A stretch of DNA of 64,000 nucleotides from a virus. A program made the position numbers and the translations under genes. Shown here piece after piece: positions 28,397 through 44,340 of the stretch (its first letter is position 1; every line of letters begins with the position of its first letter). The stretch lies in IMG/VR virus record IMGVR_UViG_3300023174_000120, positions 22,663 to 86,662 of that record, one strand, 5' to 3'. Below the pieces are notes generated by a model. The model ran no database searches. It was not told the DNA's origin and saw nothing but the letters and a program-made list of their open reading frames with translations.

Positions 28397-28431
28397 TGTT
28401 AAATAAACTGCTAACTTAATAACCCGTGATA

Positions 28432-28460
28432 TTGACATAAACATATTGTTGTGTTATTAT
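28432..28460 (+). promoter_or_regulatory. Sigma70-type promoter for the gp55-like gene
   Basis: TTGACA (28432-37), 17-bp spacer, TG-n-TATTAT (28455-60). Confidence 0.8.
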
Positions 28461-28485
28461 AAATCACAAGGAAAATATAAAAAAT

Positions 28486-29403
28486 ATGACGACCGATCTA
28501 GGAACAACTACCGGACGAAAAGTAAAATATCTAAATAATCGAGACTTACTAACAGAAATTCACAAAAGTAAATGCTCATATTCCAGCTTTGTTAAACCAG
28601 AATATCATCAATACGATGTTATTATTTCTAACCTAAACGACATTAACGACACAGTGTTAGAAGAAGCCAAAAAAAATCGTGCTAAAAGATTGGGATTAGA
28701 AGCATTTAACTTGGCTAGAGCCACCGGTGATAAAAAAATTAAACTGGCAGAATGCGTAAAAGATCCTAATACCATTGATAAAATTGATCTTGTTATTCGT
28801 ATAATGACGTTTGATCATATTCCTATGACTCCGGGCAGGAAAAAAACAACAAAAACCACTGCCGACGGGCACGAAAAAGTAAACTTCCCTCCATTTCAAC
28901 ATTGGAAATACAACGATCAAGACCAGCTGATCTGTGTTGGCAAGAGCCATTGGAAAGGTCCAGTTGATACTGGAAAGTTCGAAAAGGATCACGGACGTAT
29001 TACAGAAGGTCTGGGACGTATGTATATCAAGCTCAGCGAACGCTATGCCCAACGTAGTAACTGGAGGGGATACACTTACATTGATGAGATGCGAGGACAA
29101 GCAATACTACAACTAAGCCAAATCGGTCTACAGTTTGATGAAAGCAAAAGTGAAAATCCATTTGCTTACTATACTGCCGCTGTAACTAATTCTTTTACTC
29201 GTGTGCTGAATATTGAAAAAAAGAATCAAAATATTCGTGACGATATGTTGGAAGAACACGGATTAACTCCAAGTTCTACCAGACAACACGCTCACGAATA
29301 CGCCGAAGAAACTGCTAGACAAGCCGAATTATATAAGAATATTCGTATGCCCAAACGCGAGGACAGCATAGAGGAAGAAGAATCGCCAGAAGAGGAAGTA
29401 TAA
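28486..29403 (+). CDS. gp55: Late-transcription sigma factor, T4 gp55-like
   Basis: YLNNRDLL...NWRGYTYIDEM...FDESKSENPFAYYT...F.R...IEKK; adjacent to gp47/gp46 as in T4; TAAATA promoters throughout the window. Confidence 0.88.
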   Translation: MTTDLGTTTGRKVKYLNNRDLLTEIHKSKCSYSSFVKPEYHQYDVIISNLNDINDTVLEEAKKNRAKRLGLEAFNLARATGDKKIKLAECVKDPNTIDKIDLVIRIMTFDHIPMTPGRKKTTKTTADGHEKVNFPPFQHWKYNDQDQLICVGKSHWKGPVDTGKFEKDHGRITEGLGRMYIKLSERYAQRSNWRGYTYIDEMRGQAILQLSQIGLQFDESKSENPFAYYTAAVTNSFTRVLNIEKKNQNIRDDMLEEHGLTPSSTRQHAHEYAEETARQAELYKNIRMPKREDSIEEEESPEEEV

Positions 29404-29452: not shown

Positions 29453-30466
29453 ATGGCATTATTTAAAAAAGTCGCGTGTTTCACAGATCTTCATGTCGGT
29501 GCTAAATCAAACAGTGTTGTTCATTTGCAAGACTGCGAAGATTTTGTAGATTGGTTTATTGAACAAGCCCAAGCGGCAGGTTGTGAAACTGCTATCTTCT
29601 TGGGCGACTGGAGTCATAATAGAAACAGTATGAATCTATATACTCTAGACACCAGTATTAGGTGTTTAGAGAAACTGGGCGCTGCTTTTGAACAGTTTTT
29701 CTGGTTTCCGGGCAATCACGACCTGTTTTATAAAGACAAACGAGACATTCACAGCAGCATATTTGGCAGACATATCCCCGGAGTAACCGTAGTCGACGGT
29801 GTTACAACATTAGACGATGTTACTCTAGTACCGTGGCTAGTAGGCGATGAATGGAAAACCATGCGGAATATTAAGAGCCGCTATGTGTTTGGGCACTTTG
29901 AACTGCCTAAATTCTTTATGAACGCTATGGTACAGATGCCAGACCACGGAGAATTGCGAGCAGAAGACTTTGTCGGACCTGAATATGTGTTCAGTGGCCA
30001 CTTCCATAAACGACAAACCAACCAAAATGTTGTGTATATTGGCAATGCCTTTCCACATAACTTCTCAGATGCATGGGATGACGAGCGCGGAATGATGACA
30101 ATGGAGTGGGGTGGCCAACCTGAATATAAGACTTGGCCTGACGCTCCTAAGTTTAGAACTATCAAACTCAGCGAACTAATCGATCGCAAGGACGAAATCA
30201 TGCTGAGTAAAATGTATCTGCGTGTTAATCTAGACATTGATATCAGTTTTGAAGAAGCCAACTACATCAAAGAAACCTTTATTAAAGATTATGACATCAG
30301 AGAAATTGGTCTAGTCCAAGATAAAAGCAATTTAGAAGGCAGTTACGAAGACACACCCGATACTAAATTTGAAAGTATTGACACTATTGTTGCTGAACAA
30401 CTGGTCAATATTGACAGCGGCCAATTTGATAAAAAAATCCTAATGGATATCTACAACGACCTATGA
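29453..30466 (+). CDS. gp47: Recombination nuclease subunit (Mre11/SbcD-like)
   Basis: Metallophosphoesterase motifs DLH, GD, GNHD, GHF, SGHFH. Confidence 0.93.
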   Translation: MALFKKVACFTDLHVGAKSNSVVHLQDCEDFVDWFIEQAQAAGCETAIFLGDWSHNRNSMNLYTLDTSIRCLEKLGAAFEQFFWFPGNHDLFYKDKRDIHSSIFGRHIPGVTVVDGVTTLDDVTLVPWLVGDEWKTMRNIKSRYVFGHFELPKFFMNAMVQMPDHGELRAEDFVGPEYVFSGHFHKRQTNQNVVYIGNAFPHNFSDAWDDERGMMTMEWGGQPEYKTWPDAPKFRTIKLSELIDRKDEIMLSKMYLRVNLDIDISFEEANYIKETFIKDYDIREIGLVQDKSNLEGSYEDTPDTKFESIDTIVAEQLVNIDSGQFDKKILMDIYNDL

Positions 30467-32253
30467 GCCAATTCCGCATTAAAAACTTAACCGTAAAGAA
30501 TTTTATGAGCGTGGGTAATCAAACCCAGGCAGTAAACTTTGATCAAGAATCACTCACACTGGTGCTAGGCAGCAACTTAGACTTAGGTGGGGACGATACC
30601 GGATCACGCAACGGTACTGGTAAAACTACAATCATTAACGCTCTCAGTTATGCCCTGTACGGACAAGCACTGACTAACATTCGTAAAGAAAACCTAATCA
30701 ACAAGATCAACGGTAAGAACATGTTGGTTACTGTAGAATTTGAAAAAAATGGACTAAACTATCGCATTGAACGAGGTCGTAAACCTAATTTGCTGAGATT
30801 ATACGTAGATGACCGAGAGATCAGTATGGATAATCAAGGTGAAGATGAAAGCCAAGGCGACAGTAGAGAAACACAAAAGTCTATTGAACAGATGTTAGAC
30901 ATGACTCATACCATGTTCAAGCATCTGGTTGCGCTGAATACCTATACAGAACCATTCTTGGCCATGCGAGCCGCTGACCAAAGAGAAGTAATTGAGCAGT
31001 TGTTGGGCATTACATTGCTCAGTGAAAAGGCAGAACTGCTAAAAACTCGTGTCAAAGAAACTAAAGATTTAATCAGTGCCGAACAATTTCGCATCGAAGC
31101 AATTAAATCTGCCAACGAGAATGTTCAGAAAAGCATTGACAGTTTAGGAATTAAGAGTTCTGCGTGGGAAAAAAAGAAGAATGAAGAAATAGAAAGACTG
31201 GGTGCTGCCATTGTTAGTCTTGAATCGGTAGATATCGATGCCGAATTACTGCTTCATGCTACATTAAAGCAGTGGTTAGAAAACTCTAACAGGATTAGAG
31301 ACCTAAATAAACAAAAGGCTACCTACGAAACCGCAGTGACACAGGCTGAAAAAGCAGTTGATAGGTATCGTAAGGCACTAGAATCATTGCTGGATAAAAA
31401 ATGTCCTGCTTGCGAACAGAATATTCACGATCACAAGCACGAAGAAATGACCACAACAGCAACTAAAAATTTAGAAGATGCTGTAGTATATCTTGACACT
31501 TGCCAAACCAACTATGATAATGTTCTGCAAGAGTTATCGGATATAGGCGAGCAAGGACGCAGACCTGAACCTTTCTATGACACCGAAGCAGAAGCACTAG
31601 GGCATAAGAACAATTTAGACCAATTGACCAAGTCCTTAGAGGGCAAGGTATTAGAAATTAATCCCTACGACGAGCAGATCGAAGAATTAAAGAACACCGC
31701 TATCCAAGAAATATCTTGGGATACCATTAACGAACTCACTAGATTAAAGGATCACCAAGAGTTCCTGCATAAACTGTTAACCAATAAAGATAGCTTCATA
31801 CGAAAACGTATTATTGATCAGAATTTGTCCTATCTCAACAAGCGATTAAGTTATTATATTGATAAACTTGGTCTACCACATACAGTTATATTTCAAAATG
31901 ACCTCACTGTGGAAATCACGCAGTTAGGACAGGACTTGGATTTTGATAATTTGTCGCGTGGAGAACGCAATAGATTGATTCTCAGCATGAGTTTTGCCTT
32001 CCGCGATGTGTGGGAAGGACTATATCAGCATATCAATCTGCTGTTTATCGACGAATTAGTTGATGCCGGTATGGACTCAGCAGGGGTAGAAAGTGCCCTG
32101 GCGGTTCTAAAAAAGATGGCCAGGGAACGAAATAAGAATATATACTTGATCAGTCATAAGGATGAATTGATCGGACGTGTGAATAACGTGCTCAGAGTAA
32201 TCAAAGAAAATGGATTTACTTCTTATTCCAACAGTTTAGATTATGTCAACTGA
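30463..32253 (+). CDS. gp46: Recombination ATPase subunit (Rad50/SbcC-like)
   Basis: Walker A NGTGKTT, coiled coil with CPAC zinc hook, LSRGE signature, Walker B LLFIDE, ISH switch. Confidence 0.95.
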   Translation: MSQFRIKNLTVKNFMSVGNQTQAVNFDQESLTLVLGSNLDLGGDDTGSRNGTGKTTIINALSYALYGQALTNIRKENLINKINGKNMLVTVEFEKNGLNYRIERGRKPNLLRLYVDDREISMDNQGEDESQGDSRETQKSIEQMLDMTHTMFKHLVALNTYTEPFLAMRAADQREVIEQLLGITLLSEKAELLKTRVKETKDLISAEQFRIEAIKSANENVQKSIDSLGIKSSAWEKKKNEEIERLGAAIVSLESVDIDAELLLHATLKQWLENSNRIRDLNKQKATYETAVTQAEKAVDRYRKALESLLDKKCPACEQNIHDHKHEEMTTTATKNLEDAVVYLDTCQTNYDNVLQELSDIGEQGRRPEPFYDTEAEALGHKNNLDQLTKSLEGKVLEINPYDEQIEELKNTAIQEISWDTINELTRLKDHQEFLHKLLTNKDSFIRKRIIDQNLSYLNKRLSYYIDKLGLPHTVIFQNDLTVEITQLGQDLDFDNLSRGERNRLILSMSFAFRDVWEGLYQHINLLFIDELVDAGMDSAGVESALAVLKKMARERNKNIYLISHKDELIGRVNNVLRVIKENGFTSYSNSLDYVN

Positions 32254-32557
32254 GAAAATTGATCGATATAGAGTTCTGTACTCAGAATATGTAAAGCACT
32301 TTGTAACTTTGCATAACTATCATAACGTGTTTATGGAGAATCGGGGTAAAGATTCTACTGCTCAAGTTAGAACCAGTTTGTATTCAATGATCAAACTTGA
32401 AAGAGAAATGGCTCAGTTGGCATTAGAGTGCTTTAAAGAAAATCAAGAAAACACTAAAGCTCAAAGACAACGTCTCAAAGAGATGAGAGCGAAAGCAAAA
32501 CCCAGGATCAAACCTGGAGGAAGACCAAAAGGAAGAAAAAATGGAATCGACAGTTGA
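32243..32557 (+). CDS. Hypothetical helical protein with basic C-terminal tail
   Basis: Overlaps both neighbours in operon fashion; K/R-rich tail KPRIKPGGRPKGRK. Confidence 0.65.
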   Translation: MSTEKIDRYRVLYSEYVKHFVTLHNYHNVFMENRGKDSTAQVRTSLYSMIKLEREMAQLALECFKENQENTKAQRQRLKEMRAKAKPRIKPGGRPKGRKNGIDS

Positions 32558-32738
32558 AAATCTACAGACAGCATTTGATGAGTTTCTCAAAGAAGATGCT
32601 AAATTCGCCGGCGGTAACGCTGCTGCTGGCACCCGTGCTCGTAAGGCATTAGCAGAGATTGGCAAGTTGGTTAAGGCTCGCCGCAATGAGATCACTGCTG
32701 AAAAGAACGCTCGTAAAGAGGCCAAGGCAGCAGCATAA
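32541..32738 (+). CDS. Histone H1-like (Hc1-type) small DNA-binding protein
   Basis: KF..GNAAAGTRARKAL.EI.KL.K..R.EI motif; 65 aa, Ala/Lys/Arg-rich. Confidence 0.8.
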   Translation: MESTVENLQTAFDEFLKEDAKFAGGNAAAGTRARKALAEIGKLVKARRNEITAEKNARKEAKAAA

Positions 32739-32741
32739 TCA

Positions 32742-33167
32742 ATGACCTGGACCTATCAAGGTACAGTCGTTGAAGAACTTCCAGAAACCTGTGTAGGATT
32801 CGTATATCTAATTACGAATTCTATCACAGGCAGGAAATATATTGGCAAAAAATTAGCAAAGTTTAGCAAAACCACATACAAAACAGTAAAACTAAAGAAC
32901 GGCAACAAAAAGCGAAAGCGTATTAAGGGCAAAATAGAATCAGATTGGAAAACTTATTACGGAAGTAATACAGAATTAAATCAAGATGTGGCAAACTTAG
33001 GCATTGAAAACTTCACAAGAGAAATACTATACTATTGTAATAGCAAAGCAGAATGCAGTTACATTGAGGCACGAGAGCAGTTTGAACGTAAAGTTTTAGA
33101 AAGTAGAGATTTCTACAATGGTCAAATTGCTGTAAGAGTACATGGCTCCCACATACTAAAAAAATAG
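32742..33167 (+). CDS. Stand-alone GIY-YIG endonuclease
   Basis: GFVYLITNSITGRKYIGKK, YYGS, conserved Glu in YIEAREQ and FYN; no appended DNA-binding domain. Confidence 0.85.
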   Translation: MTWTYQGTVVEELPETCVGFVYLITNSITGRKYIGKKLAKFSKTTYKTVKLKNGNKKRKRIKGKIESDWKTYYGSNTELNQDVANLGIENFTREILYYCNSKAECSYIEAREQFERKVLESRDFYNGQIAVRVHGSHILKK

Positions 33168-33169
33168 GC

Positions 33170-33610
33170 ATATCACGCGGTATTAAGGCTTGCACTGGCC
33201 AACTTCAAGTGCCCTAAACCTGGACAATCGTATCACAGGGATGGAAACCTCTTGCCGCTGAGAGTTCTCAATCACTACCCGCAAGGATGTAGACAGCCAA
33301 GACCTGCTGTTTGATTGTTAGAAAATATTAAAATAGGCCAAAAGAAGGGAGAAAAACCCTGGGCATACCAATATGTTAGTGTATATTGTTATGCTGCCGT
33401 CATATCGAAGACGGGGCTCGAGGTACCGGATGACCGCCTCTGCAACGCCCTAACACTAAGTGAACATAAGAACTCGGATAATGTTCAATATTCTTCGCCC
33501 TATGCGGGCGAAGTGTGACCAATGAATCTGGATAATATTAAATCTTCTTCGAAGAAGACCATATGATATGAGCGCTGTGCGCGAAATATCAAGTGAACGC
33601 AGTTCACTTC
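33170..33610 (+). ncRNA. Candidate large structured RNA (multi-helix, pseudoknotted); family not recognised
   Basis: Longest non-coding gap in the window. More than 12 helices found by hand, a GCAA tetraloop, a three-way junction and a 7-bp loop-distal pairing (33376-82 with 33453-59). Confidence 0.7.
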
Positions 33611-33616
33611 TCAGTA

Positions 33617-33853
33617 TTAAAAGAAAGGAAGACCTGATTCTTTAGTTGTTTCTAAGTTCTCACCAATAATACGACTAATAATATCTCTATTTTCGTAATC
33701 TAATTGAAAGGCTTGCTCTATGGTTATAGAACCTCTCATGTACCAACACAGTCTAAACAATTCTTTCTTTAATGCTTTTGATTCTTTTTCGTGGCTCTCA
33801 ACTAGTTTGACAATGTCATCATTGGATAATGTTAAGAGCCTTGAACGAAAAAA
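33617..33853 (-). CDS. Unannotated ORF (gp51-like/GT-like), probably expressed by -1 frameshift from 33832..34704
   Basis: Frame reads FFRSRLLTLSNDDIVKLVESHEKESKALKKELFRLCWYMRGSITIEQAFQLDYENRDIISRIIGENLETTKESGLPFF*. It opens exactly at a T TTT TTC heptamer, and the first ATG is mid-ORF. Confidence 0.8.
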   Translation of the reverse strand, partial: FFRSRLLTLSNDDIVKLVESHEKESKALKKELFRLCWYMRGSITIEQAFQLDYENRDIISRIIGENLETTKESGLPFF

Positions 33854-34704
33854 TTACTATTGTCCATGGTTATAGGTAGCTCATATACAGCAGGGGCACC
33901 AGCAAGGATCTGTTCTTCAGTTGAGTGAACTGTTAATGGTAAGATACCCACGGTCTTTTTATTTTTGTTGATAAGATCCTGAATCTTTTGTATAAGACCT
34001 GCGTCTGCATTTTGAATAAATTCTCTAATGAAGTTGCGATCTTCTACAAAATTATCAGGTGTCTTTATATAGAATACGCTTTCTGCAATCATTTCTACTG
34101 TGAGATCGGTTAATTTAGAGATACCCTGATTGAAAAGTTCTAATTTTTGTTCATCTGTTAGATCAGAACTAGCAACAGACTGAATGGTTTTTTGTGATTC
34201 AAATGTTCTAATACTAACATCAGTCATGTGTCTATAGGACAAAGGTTTTACACCACAGATAATATCCGGACTAATTTCCACACTGTCAATCCACTGTGTT
34301 GTGGATAAAATTTGATCCATTACGGCAGTTAAATCAATTTGATGGTCAACCGTTTCATCCGTTCCTGGGACCTGATGAGAAATAGTCATTGTACCGCCAT
34401 AGGTAGCAATTCTAATGGCAATTAGTATAAGGTCAACATCTATTCCTGAACACCTCCACGCATTTTTAATATTGGGCATACAACTTTGAATAACATCGAC
34501 AATTGCTTGCCCATTCATTAATGCGTCTGGAGTTTTAAAAGTTAACTCATCTTTGGCTGTCATAGAATATACTGGAAATTCATTGTTCTCCGGTATATCA
34601 ATGCTGCCTTCCTCCCAAAAGAGACCATTACTTGGCAATCTAATATAGATTTTTGGTTGCCTCATGTAGCCAAGTAAAGGGTTTACTTTTGATTGAATCG
34701 TCAT
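33832..34704 (-). CDS. Baseplate hub assembly/tail assembly chaperone, gp26-like
   Basis: LPSNG..W...V.SMTAKDEL...DVDLILIAIRIATYG motif; adjacent to the tape measure gene; ends NFF. Confidence 0.8.
   Translation of the reverse strand: MTIQSKVNPLLGYMRQPKIYIRLPSNGLFWEEGSIDIPENNEFPVYSMTAKDELTFKTPDALMNGQAIVDVIQSCMPNIKNAWRCSGIDVDLILIAIRIATYGGTMTISHQVPGTDETVDHQIDLTAVMDQILSTTQWIDSVEISPDIICGVKPLSYRHMTDVSIRTFESQKTIQSVASSDLTDEQKLELFNQGISKLTDLTVEMIAESVFYIKTPDNFVEDRNFIREFIQNADAGLIQKIQDLINKNKKTVGILPLTVHSTEEQILAGAPAVYELPITMDNSNFFVQGS
33847..33853 (-). other. Putative -1 ribosomal frameshift site T TTT TTC
   Basis: In-frame X XXY YYZ heptamer 4 codons before the stop of the gp26-like gene; an in-frame TAA lies immediately upstream in the -1 frame. 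Confidence 0.75.
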
Positions 34705-43054: not shown

Positions 43055-43124
43055 TAAATAATACTGTTCGCTCGAGAGAGAGTTTATGCGGAAACCCAAC
43101 CGCGTAGGCAATAGAACTGTCTAT
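43055..43124 (+). promoter_or_regulatory. Late promoter TAAATA followed by a structured 5' leader
   Basis: TAAATA at 43055-60; GTTC/GAAC closing stem, ctc-GAGA-gag hairpin and a 10-bp stem (43082-91 with 43100-09). Confidence 0.6.
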
Positions 43125-43143
43125 AACAACAAGGAGAAATAAA

Positions 43144-44340
43144 ATGGGACGTCCAATTAAAAAGAAATTCTTTGCGAATTTAAACGCACCTTACCAAGAT
43201 CATGCCACAGGTGGCCCAACTGGTGAAGGTGGAGAAGGTGTTGCTAGTGTAACAATCACTACAACTGGAACATATGTTGGCACATTGCCTACAGTATCTT
43301 TTGGTACACCTGATCTAGCATTAGGAACAACAGCGACTGGTGTTGTTCACGGTATGGCCTTAACTGCTACTGTAAATACCACAGGTACAGGTTATGCTTA
43401 TGCTAATACGCTAGCAGTTGGTGGAGGAACCAATGTTACTTCGGCAACTTTTACTGTTAGTGCTCTTAGAACAGTTTCCATCAATAGCACCCCACAAAAT
43501 GGCGGAAGCAACAACGACACAGGAGATCGCTTTTCCTTCAGCGGCTCATACGGTGGCGGCTCGTGGACAACACCACTAGAAGTTGTAGTTACCGCAGCAG
43601 CAGGTGGTGTAGCGTCAGGAGTAGCGATTTATAGTCCAGGTGTTTGGTCTGGAACCGCAGCCCCGGCCAATACTATCGGTGCTACACGCACACAAACCTA
43701 CGGTGCTATTGATATGAACGGAACCAATCTTCAAGTAACACTAACCGATTGGGGTGTTGCTGCTGTTACAGTAGCCAACGGTGGAGATTATACAGCAGTT
43801 CCTAGTAATCCTGTATCCACTAGTGGTAGTGGAAATGGAAATGCTAAGTTAAATGTCACCTACGGTGTTAAGAGTGTTGCGATTACCAATGCAGGAAGTC
43901 ATTACTTTAATGTAGCCGATGCTAGTGTTACATTTAGTGGTGGAGCAGCAGCCGGTACTTCTGTGTTAACTAACTTGTATCAGCCGGGCCTAGCAGTTTA
44001 TGTTCATCTTCTTGATGGCACAGAAGGCGCACTGGCCGACATTATGAAGCAAGAAGCAAGCCGTCGCTACTTGGTCAAAACCAGAACAGAGAATGGTAAA
44101 GTTGGTCAATGCCGTCTAGTTGCTAGAAATCCCGGCGACCTATATGTTGGTGAAATGAGTCTGATCGCTACTGATACAGAAGGTTGTACCTACTTTGTTA
44201 CAAAACTAACAGCACATAGAGCTTATCTAGTTCAGAGATCCAGTGCTGGTGCTGGATACAGATTTGCCGATGGTTCGTCCGCTGGTTGGTCTATTAGCAG
44301 TGCTAGTGCAGGTATTGTTTCTCTAGCACATACTGCTTAA
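43144..44340 (+). CDS. Virion structural protein (possible head decoration/fibre)
   Basis: G/T/A/V-rich beta-type sequence directly after gp23, with its own promoter, strong SD and terminator. Confidence 0.6.
   Translation: MGRPIKKKFFANLNAPYQDHATGGPTGEGGEGVASVTITTTGTYVGTLPTVSFGTPDLALGTTATGVVHGMALTATVNTTGTGYAYANTLAVGGGTNVTSATFTVSALRTVSINSTPQNGGSNNDTGDRFSFSGSYGGGSWTTPLEVVVTAAAGGVASGVAIYSPGVWSGTAAPANTIGATRTQTYGAIDMNGTNLQVTLTDWGVAAVTVANGGDYTAVPSNPVSTSGSGNGNAKLNVTYGVKSVAITNAGSHYFNVADASVTFSGGAAAGTSVLTNLYQPGLAVYVHLLDGTEGALADIMKQEASRRYLVKTRTENGKVGQCRLVARNPGDLYVGEMSLIATDTEGCTYFVTKLTAHRAYLVQRSSAGAGYRFADGSSAGWSISSASAGIVSLAHTA

What the first reader, a model, noticed from the sequence alone, without database searches (positions are those of the whole stretch)
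32742..33610. Minimal GIY-YIG nuclease directly followed by a ~440-nt pseudoknotted RNA: candidate nuclease-ncRNA system
Seen: in a window where genes nearly abut, a 449-nt GC-richer gap starts at the GIY-YIG stop and is tiled with helices. These include gcact/agtgc (33192-212), ctctt/gagag (33249-64), a three-way junction closed by caatca/tgattg (33269-317) holding a cc-GCAA-gg hairpin and acagc/gctgt, aggg/ccct (33346-60), ggcata-caatat/atattg-tatgct (33362-95), ccgtc/gacgg (33397-414), nested gggc-gagg-cgg/ccg-cctc-gccc (33414-50), tgaacat/atgttca (33461-87) and cttcgccc/gggcgaag (33493-513). Loops have distal complements: ttagtgt (33376-82) with acactaa (33453-59), gccgc (33254-58) with gcggt (33177-81), and tggcc (33196-200) with ggcca (33336-40). 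The nuclease has only a catalytic domain plus a basic insert (KTVKLKNGNKKRKRIKGK). I do not recognise the RNA as tRNA, tmRNA, RNase P or a group I/II intron. Inference: an undescribed large phage ncRNA, either a scaffold/guide partner of the nuclease (by analogy with HEARO/omega RNAs), a ribozyme, or a replication primer RNA.
Basis: partly seen in the sequence, partly recalled or inferred. Interest (0 to 1): 0.9.

Follow-up and report, generated by a model that had tools for sequence, protein, structure and literature searches.

The report
Full-length Polynucleobacter-1 twin-word phage RNA
The gene-free 449 bases behind a small nuclease gene of this uncultured freshwater T4-like phage encode a real, triply knotted non-coding RNA whose first third is an orphan motif catalogued in 2010. 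It does not look like the nuclease's partner, and its job is still unknown.

Summary
The gap 33168-33616 is a conserved RNA gene on the + strand, about 435 nt long.

- **Structure:** on 104 distinct homologues, 91.8% of cells in my 104-pair structure are paired, against 78.4% in shuffles and 36-44% in slid controls. 82 of 104 pairs show changes on both sides.
12 of 16 are supported, including two of its three loop contacts. Four are not. I found a third pseudoknot.
- **Partly known:** 33187-33320 is Rfam RF01718, Polynucleobacter-1 (106.2 bits against a cut-off of 37). Its function is unknown. The other roughly 300 nt match no Rfam family.
- **Nuclease partnership not supported:**
  - The RNA also occurs behind a PD-(D/E)XK nuclease, on bacterial islands, and in another phage type with no GIY-YIG gene.
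  - Orthologues of the nuclease sit in 448 cultured phage records. The RNA matched none of the 50,697 phage records searched by blastn. RF01718 was absent from the 3 of those genomes searched whole.
- **Unexplained:** a 7-nt word occurs twice (33476-82 and 33530-36). The two copies are identical in 128 of 128 loci, although three of the letters change repeatedly between phages.

My best reading is an autonomous RNA that shows one word twice to a sequence-specific reader. This scan has already found the same family on many other genomes.

The parts
32742..33167 (+). 141-aa GIY-YIG protein with a catalytic domain only. It is the upstream neighbour, not shown to be part of the RNA's function.
   Evidence: PF19835 SegE_GIY-YIG, 115.1 bits against a cut-off of 25. 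phrog_447. No PDB relative by sequence. Orthologues at 37-52% identity in 448 cultured phage records. Mean identity to the window across loci is 72.7%.
33177..33609 (+). The whole structured RNA, about 435 nt. The 5' limit is set by the first paired base and the 3' limit by the last hairpin. The true transcript ends are not known.
   Evidence: Conserved over its full length. Covariation on 104 sequences. The strand follows from pairs that are G-U in nearly every sequence (UG:104, GU:101, UG:85); these would be A-C on the other strand. Pieces occur in contigs of 4 RNA libraries from 4 studies, two of them ending at 33180 and 33182 (a weak hint only).
33187..33320 (+). 5' domain, equal to Rfam RF01718 Polynucleobacter-1. 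Helices: P1 33192-96/33208-12; P2 33219-26/33231-39 inside CC/GG 33213-14/33243-44; P3 33249-52/33261-64; P4 33269-74/33312-17 closing a three-way junction with P4a 33279-80/33285-86 (GCAA loop) and P4b 33292-97/33306-11.
   Evidence: cmscan 106.2 bits against gathering score 37, E = 5.4e-22, model positions 1-141 of 141. Cells paired: P1 98.3%, P4 97.0%, P4b 98.1%, P4a 99.5%, P2 83-85%, P3 73.5%.
33177..33258 (+). Pseudoknot PK-A. The 5' tail 33177-81 pairs with the P3 loop 33254-58. It reaches beyond the 5' edge of the Rfam model.
   Evidence: 95.0-97.3% of cells paired and 4 of 5 pairs with changes on both sides. A variant group swaps the whole helix (seen in the alignment).
33336..33459 (+). 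Middle domain. P5 33346-49/33357-60. P6 33363-69/33388-94 plus 33370-74/33383-87. PK-B: the P6 loop 33376-82 pairs with 33453-59. PK-C: 33399-403 pairs with 33430-34, which lies inside the P8 loop. P7 33414-17/33447-50. P8 33420-24/33436-40.
   Evidence: P6 93.1% paired (12 of 12 pairs with changes on both sides). PK-B 99.2% (7 of 7). PK-C 97.5% (3 of 5). P7 92.3% (4 of 4). P8 97.7% (2 of 5; the other 3 never vary). P5 68-74%. No Rfam match.
33472..33483 (+). First copy of the twin word. The 12-mer is ACTCGGATAATG and the variable 7-nt word is 33476-82.
   Evidence: 33476, 33480 and 33482 carry the same letters as 33530, 33534 and 33536 in 104 of 104 sequences and 128 of 128 loci.
33493..33519 (+). 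Hairpin P10 (33493-500/33506-13) followed by the invariant GTGTGAC (33513-19). Both lie between the two words.
   Evidence: P10 is 99.3% paired, with 3 of 8 pairs changed on both sides. Columns 33513-19 are invariant in 104 sequences. The same hairpin and box order appears in the island and B2 RNAs.
33526..33537 (+). Second copy of the twin word. The 12-mer is ATCTGGATAATA and the word is 33530-36.
   Evidence: The letters change about 19-20, 6-9 and 5-6 times on trees, always in both copies.
33543..33609 (+). Three 3' hairpins: a variable one at 33543-58; 33565-69/33586-90 with an inner GC pair stem and a four-base loop; and the terminal hairpin 33591-98/33602-09. No run of U follows. Whether they are part of the RNA or only its stop signal is open.
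   Evidence: Terminal hairpin 91.2% paired, 8 of 8 pairs changed on both sides. Inner GC stem 98.1%. Outer stem only 61-63% in this alignment. All. The variable hairpin could not be aligned (40% paired). The consensus scan found no terminator-like site here.

Best explanation
The gap is the gene of a full-length Polynucleobacter-1-type RNA. It is an autonomous non-coding RNA of about 435 nt, read from the + strand. It is probably transcribed together with, or from just inside the end of, the GIY-YIG gene, because no terminator lies between them.

It folds into three parts:
- a 5' domain (the catalogued RF01718 motif), locked to its own 5' tail by a pseudoknot;
- a middle domain with two further pseudoknots;
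- a tail that shows the same 7-nt word twice, 54 nt apart, on either side of a hairpin and an invariant box, followed by three hairpins.

Shown: the RNA is real, its fold, its family, its spread, and its independence from the nuclease.

Inferred (about 40%): the folded body is a scaffold, and the two words are read by one sequence-specific partner present in two copies or with two sites. I think a nucleic acid read by base pairing is most likely. The partner's specificity would differ between hosts or lineages.

The GIY-YIG gene is a widespread T4-family gene that happens to lie beside the RNA gene in this clade. It is not the RNA's obligate partner.
For: Reality and fold: (91.8% paired; 82 of 104 pairs with changes on both sides; three pseudoknots at 95-99% paired).

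Family: (RF01718 at 60-112 bits in 7 of 7 loci tested).

Spread:
- 23 viral loci with a 5'-domain pattern.
- The tail profile is found in 141 of 142 loci, the 5' profile in 125.

Not coding.

Independence from the nuclease:
- L012 has a PDDEXK_15 gene in its place.
- Island RNAs lie between a DUF6641 gene and a 190-aa tyrosine recombinase beside tRNA-Phe.
- B2 phage contigs have neither enzyme next to the RNA.
- 448 cultured phage records carry the nuclease orthologue. There was no blastn match for the RNA in 50,697 records, and RF01718 was found in 0 of 3 whole genomes (the same tool found it in the window's own record).

Twin words:
- Identity in 104 of 104 sequences and 128 of 128 loci.
- Repeated parallel changes on trees.
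- Only three of seven letters vary, with 6 word types seen.
- A different word is again doubled in the islands and in B2, although those RNAs share little else.
- No complementary copy nearby: 38 hits in 512 kb against about 31 expected for a random 7-mer (my arithmetic), with no shared position.
Against: - No transcript ends, abundance or strand were measured. The RNA-library evidence is short contigs at depth 2-6, which could derive from DNA.
- Nearly constant adjacency to the nuclease (103 of 110 loci; 63 of 74 nuclease loci within 0.4 kb) could mean more than shared transcription.
- The second nuclease type at the same spot (L012) and the small recombinase on the islands fit a link to DNA enzymes.
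- The words are not clearly displayed in closed hairpin loops: flanking pairs 2-3 are only 54-70% canonical.
Confidence: 0.6

Rival explanations
1. Nuclease-RNA system. The RNA is a scaffold or guide for the GIY-YIG protein, and in other contexts for the PD-(D/E)XK nuclease or the small tyrosine recombinase. The twin words choose the DNA site.
For: Adjacency in 103 of 110 loci. In L012 a different catalytic-domain-sized nuclease takes the same place. On the islands a 190-aa recombinase made only of the catalytic domain follows the RNA in 5 of 5 loci that have room.
Against: Orthologues of the nuclease are just as small, and carry a basic insert, in phages without the RNA. The B2 RNAs have no such enzyme next to them. 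No nuclease column follows the word state: the top mutual information is 0.22 of 0.99 bits, below the SbcC control at 0.44. There is no end-standing guide. Other genes are inserted between nuclease and RNA in 8 of 74 loci.
Confidence: 0.07
2. Replication start. The transcript stays on, or returns to, its own template DNA and primes DNA synthesis. The words must match because the RNA copy of one word pairs with the template strand at the other. This idea is taken from earlier notes of this scan.
For: It explains why no complementary partner is found in the transcript or nearby. It also explains why the two copies always agree. The RNA is shared by phages and small islands that may depend on a phage. 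Its neighbours are DNA-metabolism genes.
Against: If only identity mattered, all seven letters should drift, yet four never vary in 128 loci. The window's cumulative GC-skew minimum is at about 28.9 kb, where gene direction flips, which is 4.3 kb away (weak, because skew follows transcription). Such an elaborate fold is not needed for an R-loop.
Confidence: 0.12
3. Counter-defence decoy. The RNA mimics a host RNA or an antitoxin RNA. It offers two recognition sites to a host sequence-specific protein, for example an endoribonuclease toxin, whose specificity differs between hosts.
For: Discrete alternative readers in different hosts would explain repeated parallel switching between a few word types. 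They would also explain why two very different RNAs (islands and B2) share a word. Phage RNA mimicry of an antitoxin has a precedent (PMC5449768, passages read).
Against: No tandem array was found (TRF gave 0 rows). Only 12 nt are alike between the two units. No toxin gene lies beside the island copies. The large, conserved body is unexplained.
Confidence: 0.12
4. Cis-acting 3' element of the nuclease operon. It would be a stabiliser, processing platform or terminator zone where two transcription units converge.
For: No terminator lies between the nuclease gene and the RNA. The RNA lies at a convergent junction and ends in stable hairpins.
Against: On the islands it lies upstream of, and in B2 between, unrelated genes. 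Three pseudoknots and invariant single-stranded boxes far exceed what a terminator needs.
Confidence: 0.05
5. The adjacency reflects homing. The small nucleases are, or were, mobile endonuclease genes that settle next to a highly conserved RNA gene which serves as their target.
For: Two unrelated nuclease families occupy the same spot. RNA genes are conserved targets.
Against: The nuclease is present in nearly all members and is better conserved than SbcC (72.7% against 67.1% mean identity). It lacks a DNA-binding domain. Its orthologues sit in other places in phages without the RNA.
Confidence: 0.08

Closest known systems
Polynucleobacter-1 RNA motif (Rfam RF01718; Weinberg et al. 2010, PMC2864571). 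I read only the table row through a text search. It lists the motif as a likely RNA, likely cis-regulatory, from Burkholderiales and fresh water/estuary.
   Same: Window 33187-33320 matches the whole 141-position model at 106.2 bits. The helices are the same, the habitat is the same, and the function is unknown.
   Different: The catalogued motif is only the first third. Here it is tied by a pseudoknot to bases 5' of the model, and about 290 further conserved, covarying nucleotides follow. Most copies lie in T4-like phages behind a gene, not upstream of one.
Large ornate orphan RNAs of bacteria and phages (GOLLD, ROOL, OLE; PMC12286853, search listing and start of abstract only).
   Same: Several hundred nucleotides, many helices and pseudoknots, carried by phages and mobile elements, found by comparative analysis, function unknown.
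   Different: No Rfam match to any of them. This RNA is smaller. It carries a doubled variable word, which I do not know from those RNAs (recalled).
Guide RNAs of transposon nucleases and recombinases (omega/HEARO RNAs, IS110 bridge RNAs). Recalled, not from a call.
   Same: A structured RNA beside a small DNA enzyme, with short variable segments that could read nucleic acid. Bridge RNAs have two reading loops.
   Different: No IscB, TnpB or IS110 gene is present. There is no HEARO hit. The two words are identical to each other rather than specifying two different sites. The RNA occurs without any such enzyme.
Type III antitoxin RNAs and the phage pseudo-ToxI mimic (PMC5449768, passages read).
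   Same: Pseudoknotted phage RNA with repeated recognition units for one sequence-specific protein.
   Different: There is no tandem array, no toxin gene next to it, and the units share only 12 nt.

Membership tests
Rfam RF01718 Polynucleobacter-1 | Covariance-model score at or above the curated gathering score, over the full model. | tested here: met
   106.2 bits against 37, model positions 1-141 of 141, E = 5.4e-22.
Rfam RF01718 Polynucleobacter-1 | The model's helices are kept by compensatory change in relatives. | tested here: met
   P1, P4 and P4b are 97-98% paired with changes on both sides. P2 and P3 are 73-85% paired on a MAFFT alignment.
Omega/HEARO-type guide RNA of a transposon nuclease | Next to an IscB or TnpB nuclease; variable guide at one end; HEARO model match. 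| tested here: not met
   The neighbours are GIY-YIG, Hc1-like and baseplate hub genes. There is no HEARO hit at E up to 10. The only variable segments are the internal twin words.
Group I/II intron, RNase P RNA, tmRNA, tRNA | Match to the family model. | tested here: not met
   No Rfam hit at the gathering score in the window, or at E up to 10 in 33100-33900, other than RF01718. ARAGORN found 0 genes.
Type III toxin-antitoxin RNA | Tandem array of near-identical repeats followed by an endoribonuclease toxin gene. | tested here: not met
   TRF gave 0 rows. No toxin family was found among the neighbours here or on the islands.
IS110-type bridge RNA | Encoded beside an IS110 recombinase, with two loops that carry different guides. 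| tested here: not met
   No such recombinase is present. The two words are identical in 128 of 128 loci.
RNA-primed replication origin (ColE1 RNA II type) | The transcript forms a persistent hybrid at the origin and is processed into a primer. | not testable with these tools
   Only indirect evidence: the GC-skew minimum lies 4.3 kb away, and that says little.
GIY-YIG nuclease, SegE-type domain (PF19835) | Pfam score above the cut-off; the conserved residues of the motifs that give the family its name. | tested here: met
   115.1 bits against 25. F20, V21, Y22, Y33, I34, G35, R93, E94 and N126 are invariant among 5 orthologues.

The most novel reading that the evidence does not exclude
The RNA is a programmable two-site reader. 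Its doubled 7-8-nt word brings together two copies of the same DNA or RNA sequence for a neighbouring catalytic-domain-only enzyme: GIY-YIG or PD-(D/E)XK nuclease in phages, and a 190-aa tyrosine recombinase on bacterial islands. That would be a new kind of RNA-directed DNA cutting or joining, distantly comparable to bridge RNAs.
Probability: 0.04. Interest if true: 0.95.

Novelty: new variant of a known kind. Interest (0 to 1): 0.6.

Why it matters
An orphan motif that has been in Rfam since 2010 turns out to be the head of a much larger, triply knotted RNA. That RNA is common in uncultured aquatic T4-like phages and also sits on bacterial mobile islands. RNAs of this size and intricacy usually do something mechanistically interesting.

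The strict identity of two short, fast-changing words is a rare kind of covariation. It gives a direct experimental handle: change one copy, or both.

In the paper library, 'Polynucleobacter-1' occurs only in the 2010 paper. 'RF01718' occurs there and in two papers whose titles concern unrelated bacterial genomes, which I did not open. A search combining GIY-YIG, T4-like, noncoding RNA and pseudoknot listed no paper whose title points to this RNA. So I found no description of the full-length RNA in print, but the supplementary files that could bear on this are closed.

Tried and rejected
- **Coding:** the 67-aa ORF 33315..33518 is open in 7 of 104 homologues. Rejected.
- **Hairpins closing each word:** only the first pair is constant. 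Pairs 2-3 are 54-70% canonical. Left open.
- **A helix between the spacers before the two words:** mean best run 4.70 against 4.53 with partners swapped between sequences. Rejected.
- **RNAalifold on the tail** (62 of the 104 sequences) proposes that the first word's 5' half pairs with the invariant box 33513-18, but without any change on both sides. Left open.
- **A complementary copy of the word within 2.5 kb on either side:** at chance level. The word pattern in the window, with one mismatch allowed, gives 50 matches against 36 expected. Uninformative.
- **Co-variation of nuclease residues with the word:** none above the SbcC control.
- **Single-sequence folding** does not tell the strands apart.
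- **PDB sequence search with the nuclease:** no hit.
- **RNA libraries:** share of words 0.09-0.30. The contigs laid cover only parts of 33180-33460, and depth cannot rank genes. They show neither transcription nor absence.
- **Bacterial copies in Polynucleobacter** could not be reached.
- **L224 and L230** are not held as whole records, so their genomes were not searched.
My blastn of the gap against 50,697 phage records found nothing.
- **Rows dropped before the counts:**
  - Identical sequences were merged: 110 sequences to 104, and likewise.
  - Loci whose tail match was incomplete or ran off the contig were left out of A1.
  - In one search, 21 loci with under 600 nt upstream were set aside.
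  - The patterns admit only the word forms seen in this clade, so they matched 128 loci, 63 distinct sequences and 81 distinct sequences.
Full report
**What is there.** The window is part of an 86.6-kb IMG/VR virus record. Its genes are T4-like:
- SbcC/gp46-like at 30463..32253;
- an Hc1-like 65-aa ORF at 32541..32738;
- a 141-aa GIY-YIG protein at 32742..33167 (PF19835, 115 bits);
- a baseplate-hub gene on the minus strand at 33832..34704.

Between the nuclease stop and the end of the next minus-strand ORF (33617) lie 449 bases. Their G+C is 0.43-0.455, against 0.315-0.38 in the flanking genes. No tRNA or tmRNA is present.

**A known piece.** Scanning the window against Rfam at gathering thresholds gives two hits. 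One is RF01718, Polynucleobacter-1, at 33187-33320 (+), with 106.2 bits against a cut-off of 37 over the whole model. The other is RF02980, freshwater-2, at 43068-43146; I did not follow it up. A permissive scan of 33100-33900 adds nothing with E below 0.95.

So about 134 of the roughly 435 nt are catalogued, with no known function.

**The whole gap is one conserved element.**
- A pattern from the 5' domain found 23 viral contigs. In 22 of them similarity at 68-80% identity runs from the nuclease gene through the gap, to 33538-33784. In L012 it starts only at 33188.
- Over the 142 loci then held, an nhmmer profile of the 3' two-thirds hit 141 and a profile of the 5' third hit 125. The loci without a 5' hit lie at contig ends or carry a variant head that Rfam still recognises at 60-69 bits.

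**Fold.** I took 104 distinct full-length copies (mean identity to the window 65%) and aligned them with MAFFT (A1). I then counted pairs for a structure derived from an all-against-all covariation scan and the Rfam model.

| Measure | Observed | Shuffles | Slid controls |
|---|---|---|---|
| Cells paired | 91.8% | 78.4% (0 of 500 reach it) | 35.7-44.3% |
| Pairs changed on both sides | 82 of 104 | 62.5 | 39-48 |
| Covariation score | 0.401 | 0.172 | 0.06-0.09 |

Three pseudoknots stand out:
- PK-A: 5' tail 33177-81 with the P3 loop 33254-58, 95-97% paired.
- PK-B: P6 loop 33376-82 with 33453-59, 99.2% paired, all 7 pairs changed on both sides.
- PK-C: 33399-403 with 33430-34 inside the P8 loop, 97.5% paired.

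PK-A reaches outside the Rfam model. Pairs that are G-U in nearly every sequence fix the + strand as the RNA strand. Single-sequence folding cannot do this.

Four do not exceed shuffles (ccgtc/gacgg, cgg/ccg, tgaacat/atgttca, tggcc/ggcca). The gap is not coding.

**The twin words.** Two 12-mers lie 54 nt apart, at 33472-83 and 33526-37. They flank a hairpin and an invariant GTGTGAC.

Three of the seven letters of their core vary between phages, yet the two copies agree in 104 of 104 aligned sequences and in 128 of 128 loci matched by a pattern. On a tree of the RNA, with these six columns masked, the three positions change about 19, 6 and 6 times. On a tree of the local segment alone they change 20, 9 and 5 times. 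Both trees are rough, so these are orders of magnitude.

Four letters never vary, and only 6 word types occur. So identity is not the only constraint.

No column of the RNA covaries with the words in Watson-Crick fashion. The words' reverse complements within 2.5 kb occur about as often as a random 7-mer would (38 observed, about 31 by my arithmetic) and at no shared position. Attempts to place the words in closed hairpins, or to pair their spacers, gave nothing firm.

**The RNA without the nuclease.**
- In L012 a PDDEXK_15 nuclease gene (PF24608) precedes the RNA instead.
- The only hit in 185,579 species genomes, L025, is a 6.5-kb contig of a metagenome-assembled genome. It carries integrase genes and has tRNA-derived direct repeats at both ends. 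It holds a full RF01718 head (92 bits) and, read by eye, the whole tail, with a different 8-nt word that is again present twice.
- A metagenome scan with that doubled word found 9 contigs in two groups.
  - Group B1 consists of islands like L025. They have a DUF6641 gene upstream and divergent, and a 190-aa catalytic-domain-only tyrosine recombinase about 440 nt downstream. A tRNA-Phe gene is nearby in 2 of the 4 B1 loci scanned.
  - Group B2 is phage-like, with a vWA protein, unknown 247-aa and 415-aa proteins, an ATP-dependent DNA ligase and a bilin reductase.
- B2 RNAs share the tail layout and the word, but Rfam does not recognise their heads (0 of 2 tested).

**The nuclease without the RNA.** At least 597 viral contigs encode a relative. 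The table covers the best 80, six of which have no room downstream.

| Category, of the 74 loci with room | Loci |
|---|---|
| RNA within 0.2 kb | 57 |
| Tail match starting 205-383 nt downstream | 6 |
| Insert of 0.65-1.2 kb with other ORFs | 8 |
| No RNA within 0.9-1.5 kb | 3 |

The inserted ORFs were read.

Among cultured phages, 448 records carry an orthologue at up to 52% identity. They are mostly T4-like cyanophages, plus Melnitz, the phiM12 group and ACP17.
- In Melnitz-3, P-SSM7 and ACP17 only 148, about 40 and 0 nt follow the gene.
- RF01718 is found in 0 of these 3 whole genomes.
- blastn of the gap against all 50,697 phage records finds nothing.
- The orthologues are equally small and carry a shorter basic insert.
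- No nuclease column follows the word state.

Within this clade the two genes are neighbours. Of 110 distinct loci with at least 600 nt upstream, the nuclease ends within 100 nt in 103, at 101-300 nt in 2, at 789-1032 nt in 4, and is absent in 1. The nuclease is better conserved than SbcC (72.7% against 67.1% mean identity to the window) and far better than the hub protein (39.9%).

**Expression.** Contigs of four RNA libraries from four studies hold pieces of the RNA or of relatives:
- an identical 165-nt contig over 33180-33344;
- a 258-nt contig over 33182-33432;
- contigs over 33213-33429 and 33335-33460.

Two contigs from different studies end at 33180 and 33182. This is a weak hint at an end. 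It is not proof of transcription.

**Reading.** It is shown that the RNA is real, that it is large and triply knotted, that it belongs to RF01718 by its head, that it is widespread, and that it is not bound to the GIY-YIG gene.

My inference is that the body is a scaffold and that the doubled word is read by one sequence-specific partner. Repeated switching among a few word types, and the sharing of a word between very different RNAs, fit an external reader with discrete variants better than free drift under an identity rule.

I rank the rivals as follows:
- replication priming on its own DNA (0.12);
- a counter-defence decoy (0.12);
- homing as the reason for the adjacency (0.08);
- a nuclease-RNA system (0.07);
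- a cis-acting 3' element (0.05).

The GC-skew minimum of the window lies at about 28.9 kb, where gene direction flips, and not at the RNA. That says little either way.

**Prior work.** In the paper library, 'Polynucleobacter-1' occurs only in the 2010 paper. 'RF01718' occurs there and in two papers whose titles concern unrelated bacterial genomes, which I did not open. I found no description of the full-length RNA.

This scan has met the family many times on other genomes, and earlier follow-ups reached the same core reading. I reached mine before reading those family notes, except for the replication idea, which I took from them and tested only through the skew.

Noticed in passing
window 43068-43146 (+): Rfam RF02980 freshwater-2 RNA, 58.8 bits against a cut-off of 49.9. 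It ends on an ATG, ahead of the gene that follows the capsid-region genes.
   Followed up: no
window about 28400-28950: The cumulative GC-skew minimum of the window (about 28.9 kb) coincides with the switch from minus-strand to plus-strand genes.
   Followed up: partly
window 32541-32738 (+): A 65-aa Hc1-type histone-like protein (PF07432, 50 bits) lies just upstream of the nuclease gene. tblastn found full-length matches (48 aa or more) in 24 of the 131 distinct relatives' loci.
   Followed up: partly
L012 4127-4642 (+): A 171-aa PDDEXK_15 nuclease (PF24608, 90.8 bits) takes the place of the GIY-YIG gene directly before the RNA.
   Followed up: partly
L152, L162, L164, L167, L170, L183, L193, L219: Extra DNA of 0.65-1.2 kb sits between the nuclease gene and the RNA. 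My ORF list found ORFs there in five of the eight loci: 276-336 aa in four of them (two with a GCS motif near the N-terminus) and a 93-aa Cys-rich one.
   Followed up: partly
L224 2078-2611, also L227, L228, L231: A second RNA type shares the tail layout and the island-type doubled word, but its head is not recognised by RF01718. It lies in a phage-like context with a DNA ligase and a bilin reductase.
   Followed up: partly
L025, L226, L229, L230, L232: Small bacterial islands carry the RNA between a DUF6641 gene and a 190-aa tyrosine recombinase. A tRNA-Phe gene is found in L226 and L229, and L025 has tRNA-derived direct repeats at both contig ends.
   Followed up: partly
window 33617-33760 (-): A 47-aa ORF after the hub gene is conserved in relatives at 32-79% identity. 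Other first-reader notes read it as a -1 frameshift extension of the hub gene. I did not test this.
   Followed up: no
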